From a virus (Duplodnaviria; Heunggongvirae; Uroviricota; Caudoviricetes): 17,334 nt of DNA. The position numbers were made by a program, and so were the translations under genes. The notes beneath the pieces were generated by a model. That model did no database searches and was not told the DNA's origin. It saw only the letters and a list, made by a program, of their open reading frames with translations. The number at the start of each line of letters is the position of its first letter. Position 1 is the stretch's first letter. Below are positions 1 through 4,221 of this stretch, one piece after another. Location: the IMG/VR virus record IMGVR_UViG_2690316086_000006; one strand, written 5' to 3'.

Positions 1-1182
1 CATGGCGCAAAATCGCCGTTGCCAGACGGTCGGAAATAATCCCACGGCGTGCCCAGGCGCTGAAATGGCTCGCCCTGTCCTGTGACGTCCAGGTGGCTGA
101 GCTGTCACGCCATTTCGAACCGTAATATCCGATACCCGGAATGTCCGGGTCTTCTTCCGGTTTGTTCGTCGGCACATTCACCCCGTTCTCATCGGTCATG
201 AACGGTACGAAATGGATATTCTTTTCCGTTTTGTTTTTATAGCTGCCGTACACCGTCTGGTACGTGGATTCGTTCTTCTGCTTCCAGAAATACGTCGTAT
301 CTCCACATATCCAGGGAACACCGCCAGCAGAGCCACCGACGCACTGACCTGCCATATCCGCCAGGTCTGCACGGAATTTATCAACCAGCGCACCAAACTG
401 TGCTGCGTGATTTGCCGGCGTACCGCCAAAATCAAATTCCCCCTGCATCCACACCACGGCAAACAGCACATTTTTCGGATTCTTCTTCAGTGCTGCTTTT
501 GTTCGACCGATAAGGTCCTTATACAGCGGCTTGTCCACACCCCAGCGGGTTGAATTCTCCGAGGCACCACTCGCGTCACTGTATGTGCCATCGGCTCCGG
601 TGGTGAACGCTGAACCACCACGACAGCACGGAACCAGCAGAATGCCCGCATTCGCCGGTATAAACGGCAGCAATTTTTTGGCGATATGCAGCCCTTGCCC
701 CACGGTTCCGTACTGCCCCTTTGACAGGTCCGCTTTCGGATGGTTAAGGCGGCTCATGTCCTGCACATCATGCAGACAATGGTCCGCCGGAATGATGTCG
801 TTATATTTACAGGCGACACCGCCCGGTGTCACCGTACTGCGACGCGCCAGCTGCTTAATGCGCGGGTCCGGACGGTCATATGTCTCCGGCAGCGGAAGGC
901 CTTCACCATATGCCATGCTGTTTGACTGCCCCGCCAGAACCACAACAAAGTAATACTCCGGGTCTCTGGTGGCGCTGATTACTGTGCCTTCTCCATCCGA
1001 CGGCTTCACCAACACAGGTGTGGTGACATCACCTTCCGCCGCAATGGCCTGCATCAGAGTATAAGGCGTGATGGCCACCGGGCTGCCAAATGGCTGCCAC
1101 CCCTCCTTCAGTTTTTGTGTCAGCTTTTCCGCAAGATCTGACGGCGACGCCGCCCTGACCACATCGTAGTGTTTAATCGACA
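1..1182 (-). CDS. NanS-p-like sialate O-acetylesterase (DUF1737-type N-terminus plus SGNH/SASA esterase domain); C-terminus runs off the window start
   Basis: Minus-strand frame is open from ATG at 1182 (MSIKHYDVVRAASPSDLAEKL...) to the window edge; hand translation contains the GQSNSMAYGEG esterase motif; absent from ORF track because no stop lies in the window. Confidence 0.75.
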
Positions 1183-1270
1183 TCGAATTTCTCCCGTGTA
1201 CAGGAACAGAGTTAAAAAGCCGGAACCGGAATCAAATTACAGGATGGCCATCTGCCAGTGGCTGGTCGTA

Positions 1271-1296
1271 AAAAAAGGCCACGCCATGCGCAGCCG
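1271..1296 (-). terminator. Putative intrinsic terminator (minus strand)
   Basis: Minus-sense hairpin of about 7 bp (GGCUGCG/CGUGGCC with two wobble pairs) followed by a U7 run (plus-strand A7 at 1271-1277). Confidence 0.4.
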
Positions 1297-1496
1297 GAAA
1301 TAAAGGGATAACGATGATAGTTTGAGAAAAACAGAAACAACACTTTTGTGGCAAAGCATGGTGCCGGGTGCCTCCCGGTGAATTCAGTATCAGCACCTGA
1401 ATCCGCGATTATCCCATATACCTGGTTGCTGATCGCCCCTCCGCACAGGGGGATTCACCATGCAGAAGTGTTTTTAATAAACAGCAAACAAAAAAA

Positions 1497-1610
1497 TCAA
1501 GCATTATGCAGGCTGTTTCTTTTTATCACCGGCCACAGCAATACCACAATGCCGCAGACCAGCACCCCATCCGCCAGCACCGACATGATTCTGCTGGTGA
1601 AATCCACCAT
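1497..1610 (-). CDS. Small hydrophobic peptide (37 aa, MVDFTSRIMSVLADGVLVCGIVVLLWPVIKRNSLHNA), predicted single transmembrane helix
   Basis: ATG at 1610 overlaps the TGA stop of the upstream TerB-like gene (ATGA coupling); hydrophobic core; too short for the ORF track. Confidence 0.35.
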   Translation of the reverse strand: MVDFTSRIMSVLADGVLVCGIVVLLWPVIKRNSLHNA

Positions 1611-1942
1611 CACCACCAGAAACAGCAGGAGTGCAGCCACAGCCAATCGTGTTTCACATCCTCAATCTCGCGTAACGCGGCACGACGACCAATTTTAAAA
1701 TTGGTATCCAGCTGACCGATAATAGTTGCGCTAATCGCATTAATTTCCGAGGTAAACGCAGACAACGCAGGCTGATTACGTAAGACCTGTTCGATCTTCG
1801 CTTTCTCGGATGCCTCGCATTCACCATCTGCATAGGCCACCAGGTATGCAGCGTTAATCACCGCCTGTGCCAGATCGCGTTTCTCAAACTTTTTAATTTC
1901 CGCTGCCGCTCTGCGGGTTTTCTTTTTGAAGATTCCAAACAT
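1610..1942 (-). CDS. TerB-like domain protein (110 aa)
   Basis: Internal ATG at 1942 preceded by AAAGGAAC Shine-Dalgarno; segment VINAAYLVAYADGECEASEKAKIEQVL resembles the TerB-family pattern (from memory); sits downstream of the tRNA cluster. Confidence 0.55.
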   Translation of the reverse strand: MFGIFKKKTRRAAAEIKKFEKRDLAQAVINAAYLVAYADGECEASEKAKIEQVLRNQPALSAFTSEINAISATIIGQLDTNFKIGRRAALREIEDVKHDWLWLHSCCFWW

Positions 1943-2072
1943 CGTGACGTTCCTTTGGGTGGGTGAGCCAACGCCCGGGAGCGATCTGCCCACAGAGAAA
2001 GTCACACTGACCACTCCGTAAGCTCACCCCCGAAAGGCTCTGTGGTTGATATGCGCCGGGCGTGGCGCAGAT

Positions 2073-2098
2073 ACAAAAAAGGCCCGCCGAAGCGAGCC
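2073..2098 (-). terminator. Intrinsic terminator downstream of the tRNA cluster
   Basis: Minus-sense GGCUCGC-UUCG-GCGGGCC hairpin (UUCG tetraloop) followed by UUUUUUGU. Confidence 0.7.
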
Positions 2099-2111
2099 TG
2101 GAAAATAAGTG

Positions 2112-2391: not shown

Positions 2392-3105
2392 TCAATAATC
2401 AAGCCCTTGCCTGGATACATATCTGTCTGGCGGGAAGCCATAATAGCGGTGAAATACAGAAATAAAGTAGGACCTGCTTGAATAACCGCATTTTTCTGCT
2501 ATAGCCTGTCCATATCCATGCCGGGAACATAACATATTTACAGCAACACGCATCCGCTCTTCCAGCAACAAGCGACTGAACATGCCCCCTTCATTTTTCA
2601 GTTTTGTCTTTAACAAACTCTCACTCATATGCAACTGTAGAGCAATCGCACCAAGCGTCCAGCTTGCTGATATATCTGTCTGAATTATCGCCCTGACTTT
2701 GGCACTTATGCTGGATAAACATCCACTTAAAAACAATGACATCCGTTCATCTGTTTCAAACAGAGACAGGCAGGCCATCATAAGAAACATATCCGTGGCC
2801 TCTCCGGAAAATCCCTGGCTGGTAATTAAAGCCGCAGCCAACGCAGGATTGTTGGGTTCCAGCAACAGGTAAAGCGGAATGTCAGTCAGACGAGTCCTCG
2901 TCAGCTTATGCTGACTTTCCAGATATTGACTTACGACGGATTCGCTTATATCGACAATTTTAACTTTGCCATAATGCATAAGGAAAAGCTCCCTGATGCA
3001 TTTGGTGGCCAGAACGACTGAGCCTGGCTTAAGTGACAACGTATCCTTTTCAAGAAAAATATTAATTGGGGAGCAAACCATGATAACTGAACAGACAACA
3101 GCCAT
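2392..3105 (-). CDS. AraC/XylS-family transcriptional regulator (start uncertain: 3105 or 3081)
   Basis: C-terminal region has the AraC-type double HTH signature (...SRSYFISVFHRYYGFPPDRY); AT-rich relative to neighbours; no clear Shine-Dalgarno at either start. Confidence 0.65.
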   Translation of the reverse strand: MAVVCSVIMVCSPINIFLEKDTLSLKPGSVVLATKCIRELFLMHYGKVKIVDISESVVSQYLESQHKLTRTRLTDIPLYLLLEPNNPALAAALITSQGFSGEATDMFLMMACLSLFETDERMSLFLSGCLSSISAKVRAIIQTDISASWTLGAIALQLHMSESLLKTKLKNEGGMFSRLLLEERMRVAVNMLCSRHGYGQAIAEKCGYSSRSYFISVFHRYYGFPPDRYVSRQGLDY

Positions 3106-3225
3106 TATAATTTTACTTTCATTAGCAATTGGTTAGCTCAATTATAGCCCCAAAAGGTAAATTATCATCAACACATAAGCAAAGGACTGACAGGTGTCGC
3201 CCCCCCACCAGCCGCCCATTCACCA

Positions 3226-3253
3226 CAAATAAAAAGCCTTCAGGACTGAAGGC
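3226..3253 (-). terminator. Putative intrinsic terminator after the small post-tR' ORF
   Basis: Minus-sense GCCUUCAG...CUGAAGGC hairpin followed by UUUUUAUUUG; overlaps the stop of the 3240-3437 ORF. Confidence 0.45.
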
Positions 3254-3437
3254 GTCTGTAACAACCGCACTGATAGTCTGCCAGACCCGCCATAACAAGC
3301 TGGGTCAGTATTAACTGGCAGCGTTCGCGTGAAAGGTAAGTATTCTGCGCAACCTCCCCGACTGTCGCCGGTTCGGTAACGCTTAATTCATTAAACACCA
3401 CTCTGGCGGTTTCGGTCATATCCTGCTGTTTCAGCAT
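3240..3437 (-). CDS. Hypothetical small protein (65 aa, MLKQQDMTETARVVFNELS...), first ORF after tR'
   Basis: Internal ATG at 3437 with AAGGGA Shine-Dalgarno; the longer track ORF to 3560 would run through the terminator hairpin. Confidence 0.4.
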   Translation of the reverse strand: MLKQQDMTETARVVFNELSVTEPATVGEVAQNTYLSRERCQLILTQLVMAGLADYQCGCYRRLQS

Positions 3438-3560
3438 GTCTTTTTCCCTTTTTCGGTTAACGTGACACACCAATAACTCTTGTCGAAAAAGCCAGCAAGC
3501 TGAAAGAACGGTATTAATAACCACCAGCGAATTTATTGCGCTGCTGTATATTACGGACAC

Positions 3561-3584
3561 AAAAAAACCACCTTCCGGTGGCTT
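3561..3584 (-). terminator. tR'-like intrinsic terminator downstream of Q
   Basis: Minus-sense GCCACC-GGAA-GGUGGU hairpin followed by U7; about 95 nt downstream of the Q stop. Confidence 0.6.
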
Positions 3585-3586
3585 CC

Positions 3587-3678
3587 TTGTGCGAAAAAAC
3601 TTGCATTTCGCCTCGCGATACAGCTTTGCGAAGCTTACAGGAATTCAAGCTGTTTCTGCGTAAAAAAGCAAGCTTTTT
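3587..3678 (-). promoter_or_regulatory. Putative late promoter / Q-utilisation region (pR'-like)
   Basis: Assigned by position between the Q stop and tR'; candidate -35 TTGAAT present but no convincing -10 identified. Confidence 0.25.
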
Positions 3679-4221
3679 TTATCGAAATGAATCGTGCATA
3701 GGTACATAAAGCATGTGTTCAGCCACGGCTAACCAACCTGCAATACGTTTCTCACATGTGCTGAAACACCATTCCGGGTGAGTACGATTTAAACATTCTG
3801 CCATTTTTCTCTTACTCATTCCCCGTCCTTCGTACCTTTGCCGGAGAATATTGATTAGCCCGGGATATTCCCCAAGCACCTCACTGATAACGCGATCAAT
3901 AATCAACGCCTCTGTGTCTGTACAATGTGACAACCAGCTCTTCTGCTTCCCTCTGGTCATATCCCGAAAAAATGCCTCAAGTTCCGGTTTTTCCAGCCCG
4001 GATTTCTTCATGCTGCGTAAAACCTCATTAACTGCTGTTTTCGTCAGCTTTTTCGAAACCAGTAACCGGTTAAACATATTTCCGGATTTACCCCCACCGA
4101 TATACGACCACCGCCCCCACATCCGTAATTTCCCCTGGATCCAGACTGCTTCCAGCGTGTTCAGGCGTAAATGTTCGCCGCTTTTGCCTGTAATTTCCGG
4201 ATATATCATATTTACGCTCAC
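3679..4221 (-). CDS. Late-gene antiterminator Q-like protein
   Basis: Sits between rusA and the tR' terminator/tRNA cluster; LRMWGRW motif and multiple Cys resemble Q-family proteins (from memory); ATG overlaps the rusA stop (ATGA). Confidence 0.65.
   Translation of the reverse strand: MSVNMIYPEITGKSGEHLRLNTLEAVWIQGKLRMWGRWSYIGGGKSGNMFNRLLVSKKLTKTAVNEVLRSMKKSGLEKPELEAFFRDMTRGKQKSWLSHCTDTEALIIDRVISEVLGEYPGLINILRQRYEGRGMSKRKMAECLNRTHPEWCFSTCEKRIAGWLAVAEHMLYVPMHDSFR

What the first reader, a model, noticed from the sequence alone, without database searches (positions are those of the whole stretch)
1..4221. Stx-phage-type late region without stx
The order Q, tR'-like terminator, ileZ-argN-argO tRNAs, then a NanS-p-like esterase matches the Stx2-phage late region (for example 933W) as I recall it. 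Here the slot between the tRNAs and the esterase holds a terminator, a TerB-like gene and a coupled membrane peptide instead of stxAB. An AraC-family regulator and a small ORF are inserted between tR' and the tRNAs.
Basis: partly seen in the sequence, partly recalled or inferred. Interest (0 to 1): 0.55.

Follow-up and report, generated by a model that had tools for sequence, protein, structure and literature searches.

The report
Ordinary EHEC prophage late region, no toxin
This is the late-gene control region of a common, already annotated lambda-like prophage of enterohaemorrhagic E. coli, built like a Shiga-toxin phage but carrying a small and here broken TerB/TciB gene pair where the toxin genes would sit, so it is ordinary.

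Summary
All features lie on the minus strand, in this order:
- Q antiterminator
- tR' terminator
- 65-aa ORF
- AraC-family regulator
- ileZ, argN and argO tRNAs
- terminator
- TerB-like gene
- small membrane peptide
- NanS-p esterase

The reading "Stx-phage-type late region without stx" is supported, but the layout is already known.

- **Source.** The window is 99.97% identical to a prophage of E. coli O103 ML775.
- **Same layout elsewhere.** It occurs in O157:H7 EDL933 and SS52. Sakai Sp9 and Sp10 carry close variants.
- **Link to stx.** A Q protein identical to this one sits in front of stx2 in an IMG/VR contig.

- The 65-aa ORF and the terminator after argO are backbone, and Stx phages carry both.
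- The AraC gene fills a slot that usually holds a DNA methylase. It is 99% identical to an EDL933 protein that is probably PsrB.
- An STnc100-family sRNA (1320-1492) was missed.
- A 150-bp deletion, found in 1 of 5426 genomes, truncates TerB and removes the peptide's start codon.

Novelty: none. Interest: low.

The parts
4590..5636 (-). DUF968 (YdfU-like) gene, in the nin-type region upstream of Q
   Evidence: Pfam DUF968, 8e-77. Same gene order in Sakai Sp9 and EDL933.
4218..4577 (-). RusA Holliday-junction resolvase gene, directly upstream of Q
   Evidence: Pfam RusA, 1.8e-16.
3679..4209 (-). Late-gene antiterminator Q, DUF1133 family with the Q21 fold (176 aa; the longest ORF starts at 4221)
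3607..3678 (-). Conserved block after the Q stop codon: the presumed pR' promoter and Q-utilisation region
   Evidence: Conserved across 31 distinct sequences found downstream of DUF1133 genes. The core GCTTCGCAAAGCTGTATCGCGAGGCGAA (3634-3607) is nearly invariant. The promoter hexamers could not be assigned.
3561..3592 (-). tR' intrinsic terminator
   Evidence: Hairpin GCACAAGGAAGCCACC-GGAA-GGTGG... followed by a T7 run; dG -23.9 kcal/mol, z -6.4. A hairpin plus T-run sits at the same position downstream of Q in relatives, with three different stem sequences.
3240..3437 (-). 65-aa backbone ORF (PHROG 331; weak TrmB-like winged-helix signal)
   Evidence: PHROG 331 at 8e-37; Pfam TrmB at 0.003, below its cut-off. 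94-97% identical copies in Stx2a_WGPS2, phiSTEC1575-Stx2k and PPyecE_EH1910.
3229..3253 (-). Intrinsic terminator after the small ORF
   Evidence: GCCTTCAGTCCTGAAGGC followed by TTTTT; dG -10.5 kcal/mol, z -3.8.
3141..3168 (-). Promoter-like site 36 nt before the AraC start codon
   Evidence: ATGATA-16-TATAAT, 10 of 12 matches. Consensus match only.
2392..3105 (-). AraC/XylS-family regulator of the YdeO/GadX type; probably a PsrB orthologue
   Evidence: HTH_AraC 2.4e-13 and HTH_18. Best NCBIfam resemblance is YdeO at 4e-31, below its cut-off. 234 of 237 residues identical to EDL933 WP_000301797.1, which sits in the same layout. 37% identical to Sakai Sp1 ECs_0287. Present in 726 of 5426 genomes.
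2288..2363 (-). tRNA with anticodon CAT (ileZ; tRNA-Ile in the RefSeq annotation)
   Evidence: ARAGORN and Rfam at 72.5 bits. Identical to ileZ of Stx2a_WGPS2.
2202..2278 (-). tRNA-Arg with anticodon TCG (argN)
   Evidence: Two mismatches to argN of Stx2a_WGPS2.
2112..2188 (-). tRNA-Arg with anticodon TCT (argO)
   Evidence: Four mismatches to argO of Stx2a_WGPS2.
2070..2099 (-). Intrinsic terminator of the tRNA module; left border of the cargo slot
   Evidence: dG -14.6 kcal/mol, z -4.7. Conserved in Stx2a and Stx2k phages, in empty sites and in Sakai Sp10. Annotated in 933W as a terminator upstream of stx.
1646..1942 (-). TerB/TciA-like gene, truncated: first 99 of 143 codons, then reading out of frame to a stop at 1610
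   Evidence: 100% identical to residues 1-99 of the intact protein. Pfam TerB falls from 60.2 to 24.3 bits, just under the 24.4 cut-off. The annotation of ML775 marks it as a pseudogene.
1645..1646 (.). Junction of the 150-bp deletion relative to O103:H2 12009 and all other close relatives
   Evidence: The junction occurs in 1 of 5426 complete E. coli genomes.
1497..1645 (-). DUF3927/TciB-like small membrane protein gene that has lost its GTG start and first six codons
   Evidence: The intact form matches Pfam DUF3927 at 4e-17 and PHROG 1470 'TciB-like' at 4e-30. Sequence comparison.
1320..1492 (-). STnc100-family (PasD-related) small RNA; right border of the cargo slot
   Evidence: Rfam RF02076 at 104.7 bits against a gathering score of 47. 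Found in the same position after stxB in 933W and Stx2a_WGPS2, and directly after the argO terminator in empty sites.
1270..1295 (-). Intrinsic terminator between the sRNA and the esterase gene
   Evidence: dG -12.8 kcal/mol, z -2.7.
1..1183 (-). NanS-p sialate O-acetylesterase gene: first 394 codons, running off the window end
   Evidence: Pfam DUF1737 and SASA. 3PT5 NanS at 3.7e-117. 95% amino-acid identity to Stx2a_WGPS2 and 86% to 933W.

Best explanation
This is the Q-controlled late-region head of a lambdoid prophage that carries no stx. It belongs to the CP-933O / Sakai Sp9-Sp10 kind found widely in EHEC, and it is assembled from known interchangeable modules.

**On induction (inferred from the lambda, 21 and 933W paradigm).**
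- Transcription through DUF968 and RusA makes Q.
- Q is a DUF1133 protein with the Q21 fold. It loads onto RNA polymerase paused just downstream of pR', within 3678-3607, and makes it resistant to terminators.
- The polymerase then reads through tR' (3592-3561) and three further intrinsic terminators (near 3240, 2085 and 1285).
- This takes it into nanS-p and the holin, endolysin and structural genes beyond the window.

**In the lysogen (inferred).**
- pR' transcripts stop at tR'.
- The inserted accessory genes ('morons') are expressed on their own:
  - an AraC-family regulator, probably PsrB, which published work links to the GAD acid-resistance genes and indirectly to type III secretion;
  - three rare-codon tRNAs;
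  - an STnc100-family sRNA.

**The toxin slot.**
- The slot lies between the argO terminator and the sRNA, at 1493-2063. It holds a TciA/TerB-TciB/DUF3927 pair in place of stxAB.
- In this strain a 150-bp deletion has inactivated the pair.

**Shown here:** the identity and order of all parts, the Q fold, the slot boundaries, the deletion, and the distribution.
**Inferred:** antitermination itself, promoter positions, the regulator's targets, and the function of TciA/TciB.
For: - **Source.** The window is 99.97% identical to E. coli O103 ML775 and 99.7-99.8% identical to O103:H2 12009.
- **Spread.** At least 80% of 1-4300 is present in 201 complete genomes.
- **Same gene order.** It occurs in EDL933 at 1.904-1.909 Mb and in O157:H7 SS52. 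Sakai Sp9 and Sp10 carry variants.
- **pR'/tR' region.** A conserved block is followed by a terminator that keeps its position while its stem sequence varies.
- **Cargo in the slot.** Among IMG/VR loci with this Q type, the space between tRNAs and esterase is empty in 16, holds TerB in 11, and holds Stx2A in 4. One of the Stx2A loci has a 100% identical Q.
- **Slot borders** are conserved in Stx2a and Stx2k phages, 933W and empty sites.
- **AraC.** 99% identical to the EDL933 protein. The same gene precedes stx2k in phiSTEC1575-Stx2k.
- **TciA/TciB naming.** Used in JLK-2012, Sakai and PHROGs.
- **sRNA and esterase context** has been published (bioRxiv 10.64898/2026.05.13.724894; PMC10462455).
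Against: - No experiment here shows antitermination by a DUF1133 protein.
- The AlphaFold model is only moderately confident overall (mean pLDDT 63.6). Only residues from about 100 to 176 are well predicted.
- Direct sequence similarity to Q21 is weak (E 0.18).
- No convincing sigma-70 hexamers could be placed in the conserved block after Q.
- Promoter-like sites in 1-4300 are no more frequent than in shuffled sequence: 5 found against 4.9 expected.
- Equating the AraC gene with PsrB rests on map position and context, not on a comparison with the z2104 sequence.
- The portal gene of the same prophage is frameshifted in ML775 and 12009. The prophage may therefore be defective, and its late operon may never function as a whole.
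Confidence: 0.9

Rival explanations
1. The prophage is a direct descendant of an Stx2 phage in which stxAB was recently replaced or lost, that is, a 'stx-loss' derivative rather than an independent non-Stx lineage.
For: - The same backbone of Q, small ORF and tRNAs carries Stx2A in four IMG/VR loci, one with a 100% identical Q.
- The esterase allele is closest to that of an Stx2a phage, at 95% amino-acid identity.
- The slot borders are shared with Stx phages.
Against: - There is no stx remnant in the slot or anywhere in the window.
- The TerB/DUF3927 cassette is itself widespread: 839 genomes, with a median of 6 copies per genome.
- The cassette also sits behind unrelated Q genes and other tRNA sets, for example JLK-2012 and Sakai Sp6.
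- The full AraC-tRNA-TerB layout exists in EDL933 and SS52.
- The direction of exchange cannot be read from these data.
Confidence: 0.1
2. The TerB-like gene and the membrane peptide form a working two-gene stress or exclusion module in this strain, expressed as the reader's 'coupled' pair.
For: - In intact relatives the two genes overlap by GTGA.
- They are kept together in many prophages and phages.
- TerB aligns along its full length with Klebsiella TerB structure 2JXU, at 4.4e-8.
Against: - In this window 150 bp are missing. TerB loses 44 C-terminal residues and its stop codon, and scores just under the Pfam cut-off. The peptide loses its start codon and six codons.
- The annotation of ML775 marks TerB as a pseudogene.
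- Neither protein matches PADLOC defence models above noise.
- No experimental function is known to me for phage TciA or TciB.
Confidence: 0.05
3. The 150-bp deletion is an assembly artefact of a multi-copy repeat rather than a real allele.
For: - The TerB/DUF3927 module is present in up to 10 copies per genome, a situation in which assemblies can collapse or mis-join.
- The junction is found in only one of 5426 complete genomes.
- No microhomology flanks the breakpoints.
Against: - The window and the ML775 record differ at 5 positions yet share the junction exactly.
- The missing stretch is a clean internal 150 bp with perfectly collinear flanks.
Confidence: 0.1

Closest known systems
Prophage in the CP-933O / OI-57 area of E. 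coli O157:H7 EDL933 (NZ_CP008957.1, 1.904-1.909 Mb), and the same prophage in O157:H7 SS52
   Same: Identical gene order: DUF968, RusA, DUF1133 Q, 198-nt ORF, AraC-HTH, tRNAs, TerB, DUF3927, SASA esterase, holin. A PerC/Pch regulator and NleG effectors lie further on. The AraC protein is 234/237 identical.
   Different: - Q is only 77% identical.
- Two tRNAs (Ile, Arg) rather than three.
- TerB and DUF3927 are intact.
- The esterase is annotated at a different length (1851 nt, against 1938 nt in ML775); I did not compare the sequences.
Sakai prophages Sp9 and Sp10 (NC_002695.2)
   Same: - Sp9: DUF968, RusA, a 531-nt 'phage antiterminator', 198-nt ORF, then ileZ3-argO3, esterase, S.
- Sp10: DUF1133 antiterminator, ileZ4-argO4, TciA/TerB-like protein (100% identical to the intact form), esterase, holin.
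   Different: - Sp9 has a DNA methylase where the AraC gene sits, and its cargo slot is empty.
- Sp10 lacks both the small ORF and AraC.
Stx2 phages 933W and Stx2a_WGPS2
   Same: - tRNA cluster plus its terminator, 94-95% nucleotide identity.
- STnc100-family sRNA directly upstream of the esterase.
- NanS-p, 86-95% amino-acid identity.
- Lysis genes follow.
- Stx2a_WGPS2 also shares the 65-aa ORF.
   Different: - stx2AB occupies the slot.
- Q belongs to other families.
- No AraC gene: Stx2a_WGPS2 has a methylase, and 933W has only a methylase remnant.
- 933W has AsxR antisense next to the sRNA; the window has neither AsxR nor AgvB.
Escherichia phage phiSTEC1575-Stx2k (OQ243220.1)
   Same: One continuous 1.48-kb match at 91.9% covering the small ORF, AraC gene, three tRNAs and terminator.
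   Different: - stx2k AB follows the tRNAs.
- No NanS-p.
- A different antiterminator (753 nt).
tciA-tciB of phages JLK-2012 and PPyecE_EH1910 (names taken from phage P1 tciA/B/C)
   Same: A TerB-like gene overlapping a DUF3927 gene, placed between the tRNAs or Q and yjhS/nanS-p. 97-98% amino-acid identity to the intact TerB. PHROGs labels them 'tellurite resistance' and 'TciB-like'.
   Different: - The window's copy carries the 150-bp deletion.
- The link to P1 rests on database names and my memory of the P1 genome paper; I did not compare the sequences here.
Phage 21 antiterminator Q21 (PDB 6JNX, 6P18)
   Same: - Shared N-terminal W..G.L..WG.W.Y.G motif.
- PF06530 hit above its cut-off.
   Different: - Direct sequence similarity is marginal (E 0.18).
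- Pfam and the RefSeq annotation file the protein under 'unknown function'.
- The Q-binding element and pause site are not identified.

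Membership tests
Lambdoid late-region control unit (Q, pR', tR') | A Q-family antiterminator gene at the end of the nin region | tested here: met
   [not shown]
Lambdoid late-region control unit (Q, pR', tR') | An intrinsic terminator a short distance downstream of Q, conserved in position | tested here: met
   3592-3561, dG -23.9 kcal/mol, z -6.4. Three different stems occupy the same position in 31 distinct relatives.
Lambdoid late-region control unit (Q, pR', tR') | An identifiable pR' promoter with a Q-binding element and a sigma-dependent pause site | tested here: inconclusive
   A conserved block lies at 3678-3607 with a nearly invariant 28-nt core, but no acceptable -35/-10 pair was found.
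Lambdoid late-region control unit (Q, pR', tR') | Q-dependent read-through of terminators | not testable with these tools
   Needs reporter or transcript mapping.
Stx-converting phage | stxA and stxB between the tRNA cluster and nanS-p | tested here: not met
   tblastn with Stx2A and Stx2B gives no hit better than E 0.2. The slot at 1493-2063 holds TerB/DUF3927 DNA.
Stx-phage tRNA module (ileZ-argN-argO) | Three tRNAs with anticodons CAT, TCG and TCT in this order, followed by a terminator | tested here: met
   They show 0, 2 and 4 mismatches to the named genes of Stx2a_WGPS2. 94.7% identity to 933W, terminator included.
NanS-p (prophage sialate O-acetylesterase) | N-terminal DUF1737 domain followed by a SASA catalytic domain homologous to NanS/YjhS | tested here: met
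   Pfam DUF1737 1.4e-15 and SASA 3.7e-12. 3PT5 at 3.7e-117 over residues 71-393. The C-terminal domain lies outside the window. Catalytic residues were not checked.
TerB (PF05099) / phage TciA | A complete TerB domain | tested here: not met
   The window copy scores 24.3 bits against a cut-off of 24.4 and lacks residues 100-143. The intact relative scores 60.2 bits and aligns with 2JXU over residues 14-137.
DUF3927 / TciB-like | A complete 55-aa ORF, translationally coupled to the TerB gene | tested here: not met
   The GTG start and the first six codons lie inside the deleted 150 bp. The intact form matches DUF3927 at 4e-17.
AraC/XylS regulators; PsrA/PsrB/PatE group of EHEC prophages | C-terminal AraC-type double helix-turn-helix | tested here: met
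   HTH_AraC 2.4e-13 and HTH_18 5.8e-10.
AraC/XylS regulators; PsrA/PsrB/PatE group of EHEC prophages | Sequence identity with PsrB (z2104) or PsrA (z1789) | tested here: inconclusive
   - 99% identical to EDL933 WP_000301797.1.
- That gene lies at about 1.905 Mb in the CP-933O/OI-57 area, next to Pch and NleG genes. This fits the published description of the psr genes (PMC10877973).
- The z2104 sequence itself was not available.
- 37% identical to Sakai Sp1 ECs_0287, presumably PatE.
STnc100 sRNA (RF02076) | Score above the Rfam gathering threshold over the full model | tested here: met
   104.7 bits against 47, model positions 1-206. This is a shorter variant (173 nt) than the one in 933W (207.7 bits).

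The most novel reading that the evidence does not exclude
The interval between the argO terminator and the STnc100-family sRNA may be a discrete, recombination-defined cargo slot. Behind one and the same Q/pR' backbone it can hold stx2AB, tciA-tciB or nothing.

If so, non-toxigenic prophages like this one would be ready partners for gaining or losing stx by homologous exchange. This one has a Q protein identical to that of an stx2-bearing prophage and an Stx2a-type nanS-p allele. TciA/TciB would also be a Q-controlled late product in the way Stx is.
Probability: 0.35. Interest if true: 0.3.

Novelty: already known. Interest (0 to 1): 0.1.

Why it matters
It matters little as a discovery. The layout is in the EDL933 and Sakai reference genomes. 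NanS-p in non-Stx prophages, the tRNA module and the flanking sRNAs have all been described.

Three modest practical points follow:
- **The Q label.** The 'DUF1133, unknown function' label in Pfam and RefSeq hides a Q21-fold antiterminator. In some prophages that protein sits directly upstream of stx2. The papers I read describe Q933, Q21, QO111 and one untyped 273-aa Q; none of them mentions this DUF1133 type.
- **Slot borders.** The borders of the stx slot can be stated to within a few bases.
- **Gene decay.** This strain shows decay of the TciA/TciB accessory genes.

Tried and rejected
- **Looking for the AraC gene in O157:H7 prophages where psrA was expected.** Sakai Sp6, Sp9, Sp10 and EDL933 CP-933N do not carry it. 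It turned up in the EDL933 CP-933O area.
- **Primary papers.** The psrA/psrB and PatE papers are not held, and NC_002655.2 is not in the collection. The z2104 sequence could therefore not be compared.
- **Literature search for tciA/tciB.** It returned only unrelated Trypanosoma and engineering papers.
- **PADLOC defence models.** Nothing above noise for TerB, DUF3927, AraC, the small ORF or Q.
- **NCBIfam.** No model for Q, the small ORF, DUF3927 or the esterase.
- **Megablast of the Q region against deposited phage genomes.** No Stx phage has this Q there. The link to stx2 came only from IMG/VR contigs.
- **Assigning pR' hexamers.** Candidates such as TTGCTT-17-TTGAAT and the aligned TA(A/T/C)GCT column each lack a key consensus base. 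I left the promoter unassigned.
- **QO111 as a name for this Q.** Rejected, because QO111 is a 126-aa protein.
- **Microhomology at the deletion ends.** None found.

Full report
**What is in the sequence**

All features of the finding lie on the minus strand, so transcription runs from high to low coordinates. In that order they are:

| Coordinates | Feature | Evidence |
|---|---|---|
| 4590-5636 | DUF968 gene | |
| 4218-4577 | RusA gene | |
| 3679-4209 | Q candidate (longest ORF to 4221) | |
| 3592-3561 | strong hairpin plus T-run | |
| 3240-3437 | 65-aa ORF with its own terminator at 3253-3236 | |
| 3168-3141 | promoter-like site | |
| 2392-3105 | AraC-family gene | |
| 2288-2363, 2202-2278, 2112-2188 | tRNAs CAT, Arg-TCG, Arg-TCT | |
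| 2099-2080 | terminator | |
| start at 1942 | TerB-like gene | |
| 1497-1646 | hydrophobic small ORF | |
| 1320-1492 | Rfam STnc100 sRNA, 104.7 bits (gathering score 47) | |
| 1295-1277 | terminator | |
| 1183 down to 2 | first 394 codons of an esterase, DUF1737 plus SASA, E 3.7e-117 to NanS structure 3PT5 | |

There is no trace of stx anywhere in the window.

**Where it comes from**

- The window is 99.97% identical to a prophage of E. coli O103 strain ML775, with 5 mismatches and no gaps over 17,334 bases.
- It is 99.7-99.8% identical to the corresponding prophage of O103:H2 12009, apart from one 150-bp gap.
- At least 80% of 1-4300 is present in 201 of 5426 complete E. coli genomes, mostly O103, O26, O45 and O111 EHEC.
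- Every protein is an exact match to sequences seen on hundreds to more than a thousand contigs.

**The 150-bp deletion**

- Relative to 12009 and all other close relatives, the window lacks 150 bp between 1645 and 1646.
- The missing piece holds the last 44 codons and the stop codon of the TerB gene. It also holds the GTG start and first six codons of the DUF3927 gene, which in intact copies overlaps TerB by GTGA.
- TerB therefore runs out of frame for 11 codons, and its Pfam score drops from 60.2 to 24.3 bits, just under the cut-off.
- The junction exists in only one of 5426 complete genomes, ML775, and the annotation there marks TerB as a pseudogene.

**Is the Q call right?**

- The protein is a DUF1133 family member that RefSeq labels only as such. 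It also passes the Pfam threshold of PF06530, Phage_antitermQ, and hits PHROG families named 'anti-termination protein Q-like'.
- Direct sequence similarity to the solved Q21 is marginal (E 0.18), though collinear and sharing an N-terminal tryptophan-rich motif.
- In independent phages and prophages the DUF1133 gene sits immediately before tRNAs and lysis genes. The Sakai curators call it 'phage antiterminator'.
- I take it as a Q21-fold antiterminator. Its activity is inferred.

**pR' and tR'**

- I compared the 170 nt after the stop codon of 83 DUF1133 genes, which gave 31 distinct sequences.
- They share a conserved block with a nearly invariant core, GCTTCGCAAAGCTGTATCGCGAGGCGAA (window 3634-3607).
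- About 20 nt further on, each has a hairpin plus T-run in the same position, with three different stem sequences. That is what a conserved terminator looks like.
- In the window it folds at -23.9 kcal/mol (z -6.4).
- I could not place convincing -35 and -10 hexamers. The promoter is inferred to lie in 3678-3607 but is not located.

**Comparison with Stx phages**

Against 933W, three segments match:
- the esterase and its leader, 1-1196, 87.8%;
- part of the sRNA, 1356-1481, 74%;
- the tRNA cluster with its terminator, 2064-2367, 94.7%.

Nothing upstream of the tRNAs matches 933W. Against Stx2a_WGPS2 the same segments match, with the esterase at 95%, and so does 3204-3569, the 65-aa ORF and the edge of tR'.

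The 933W record already annotates a terminator between argO and stxA. The hairpin is conserved in Stx2a and Stx2k phages, in empty sites and in Sakai Sp10. In 933W and Stx2a_WGPS2 an STnc100 element lies directly after stxB and before the esterase.

The stx slot can therefore be delimited in window coordinates. It runs from the end of the argO terminator flank (about 2064) to the 5' end of the sRNA (about 1492). It holds 1.37 kb of stxAB in Stx2a_WGPS2, about 0.73 kb of TerB/DUF3927 in intact relatives, and about 0.1 kb in empty sites.

**The same backbone does drive stx2 elsewhere**

I classified the 3 kb downstream of Q in 80 IMG/VR loci that encode this Q type at 81-100% identity.

- **Slot between small ORF and tRNAs:** usually a Dam-like methylase, sometimes the AraC gene.
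- **Slot between tRNAs and esterase:** empty in 16 loci, TerB with or without DUF3927 in 11, Stx2A in 4.
- **Stx2A loci:** L032 has a Q protein 100% identical to the window's, and L036 is 98.9% identical.
- **Window type:** L028 has the exact combination found in the window.

The AraC gene with the small ORF and tRNAs also occurs, at 91.9% over 1.48 kb, in front of stx2k in phage phiSTEC1575-Stx2k. 'Inserted', however, is the wrong word for the small ORF, which is backbone, and for AraC, which is alternative cargo.

**It is already known**

- EDL933 carries the same order at 1.904-1.909 Mb: DUF968, RusA, DUF1133, 198-nt ORF, AraC-HTH, tRNA-Ile, tRNA-Arg, TerB, DUF3927, SASA esterase, holin. 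A PerC/Pch regulator and NleG effectors lie further along.
- SS52 has the same layout.
- Sakai Sp9 has the same nin-Q backbone with a methylase and an empty slot.
- Sakai Sp10 has a DUF1133 antiterminator, ileZ4, argO4, a 'TciA/TerB-like protein' and the esterase.
- Sakai Sp6 has Q, a truncated TciA, DUF3927 and NanS-p.
- Deposited phages JLK-2012 and PPyecE_EH1910 name the pair tciA/tciB, or describe it as TciA/TerB-like.
- PHROGs lists both genes as accessory 'morons'.
- A 2023 paper notes nanS-p in non-Stx prophages (PMC10462455).
- A 2026 preprint describes STnc100/PasD upstream of the esterase, and names TerB and RusA among the conserved neighbours (10.64898/2026.05.13.724894).

**The AraC regulator**

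- It has the AraC double helix-turn-helix. Along its full length it most resembles YdeO and GadX, below their family cut-offs.
- It is 37% identical to the only AraC-type regulator of Sakai Sp1, which is presumably PatE.
- It is 234/237 identical to the EDL933 protein WP_000301797.1.
- That EDL933 gene lies in the CP-933O/OI-57 area next to Pch and NleG genes. This fits the published description of psrB (z2104) as a prophage AraC-like regulator associated with effector loci and Pch, acting through gadE/yhiF on acid resistance and type III secretion (PMC10877973; PMC8565820).
- I could not obtain the z2104 sequence, so 'PsrB orthologue' remains an inference.
- The gene is present in 726 of 5426 genomes, with a median of two copies.

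**How it most likely works**

*Inferred from the lambda, 21 and 933W paradigm.*
- On induction Q is made. It engages RNA polymerase at a pR'-proximal pause site and renders it resistant to tR' and to the three further intrinsic terminators.
- nanS-p, the lysis genes and the structural genes are then expressed.
- In the lysogen, pR' transcripts end at tR'. The accessory genes, insulated by their own terminators, are expressed independently.

*From established knowledge.*
- The three tRNAs read AUA, CGA and AGA/AGG, codons rare in E. coli.
- NanS-p removes the 9-O-acetyl group from mucin-derived sialic acid.

*Function unknown.*
- No experimental function is known to me for the phage TciA/TciB pair, and here the pair is broken.

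*Caveat.*
- The portal gene of this prophage is frameshifted in ML775 and 12009, so the element may be defective.

**Verdict**

This is an already known module arrangement of EHEC lambdoid prophages. The only strain-specific feature is a 150-bp deletion that inactivates the TciA/TciB pair. Interest is low.

Noticed in passing
window 1645|1646: A 150-bp deletion relative to all close relatives removes the TerB C-terminus and the DUF3927 start codon. The junction is present in only 1 of 5426 complete E. coli genomes (O103 ML775). No microhomology lies at the breakpoints.
   Followed up: yes
window 1320-1492 (-): An STnc100-family (PasD-related) sRNA lies between the cargo slot and nanS-p. It is a short 173-nt variant. 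The same element follows stxB in 933W and Stx2a_WGPS2, and follows the argO terminator directly in empty sites.
   Followed up: yes
L028 6062-6123, L010 20921-20982, L097 4985-5037: In relatives, an anti-sRNA gene lies antisense and directly adjacent to the 3' end of STnc100. It is AgvB in the window-type IMG/VR locus and in Sakai Sp10, and AsxR in 933W. The window has neither, and its esterase allele is the Stx2a-phage type. A recombination breakpoint therefore seems to lie in or near the sRNA.
   Followed up: partly
window 3634-3607 and 3672-3626 (-): A nearly invariant 28-nt core after all DUF1133 Q genes contains two small inverted repeats (GCTT-CGCA-AAGC and TCGC-GAG-GCGA). The motif GCTT(G/C) recurs three times at conserved spacing upstream of the core. 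These are possible Q-binding or pause elements, but they remain unassigned.
   Followed up: partly
L081, L084, L088, L090 (3773-4468): In Rac-like IMG/VR prophages a different AraC-family gene, 34-35% identical to the window's, follows the DUF1133 Q gene directly. AraC-type regulators thus recur as cargo at this position.
   Followed up: no
L013 5759-6115 (-): In one class of loci, about 880 nt separate argO from the esterase. There a 118-aa ORF on the opposite strand sits between the sRNA and nanS-p. By position it may be IraM-like, since iraM is annotated there in some Stx2a phages. It was not tested.
   Followed up: no
window 16102-16153 (+), 16328-16516 (+): A DicF sRNA (75 bits) lies upstream of dicB in the immunity and early region of the same prophage.
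   Followed up: no
window 6046-6608 (+) and 14170-14834 (-): The prophage carries two type II toxin-antitoxin pairs. ParD/ParE lies opposite to the nin-region genes just upstream of DUF968. HigB with its HTH antitoxin lies near the immunity region. Coordinates were mapped from the ML775 annotation.
   Followed up: no
L003 2926-5510; L001 1547-4131 and 4343-6280 (outside the window): The portal gene of this prophage is frameshifted in ML775 and in 12009, and the capsid gene has an internal stop in 12009. The prophage is probably defective.
   Followed up: no
window 3679-4209 (-): Pfam and RefSeq label this protein 'DUF1133, unknown function'. Its predicted fold is that of antiterminator Q21, and identical or near-identical copies sit upstream of stx2 in IMG/VR loci L032 and L036. 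The papers I read describe Q933, Q21, QO111 and one untyped 273-aa Q, and none mentions this type.
   Followed up: yes
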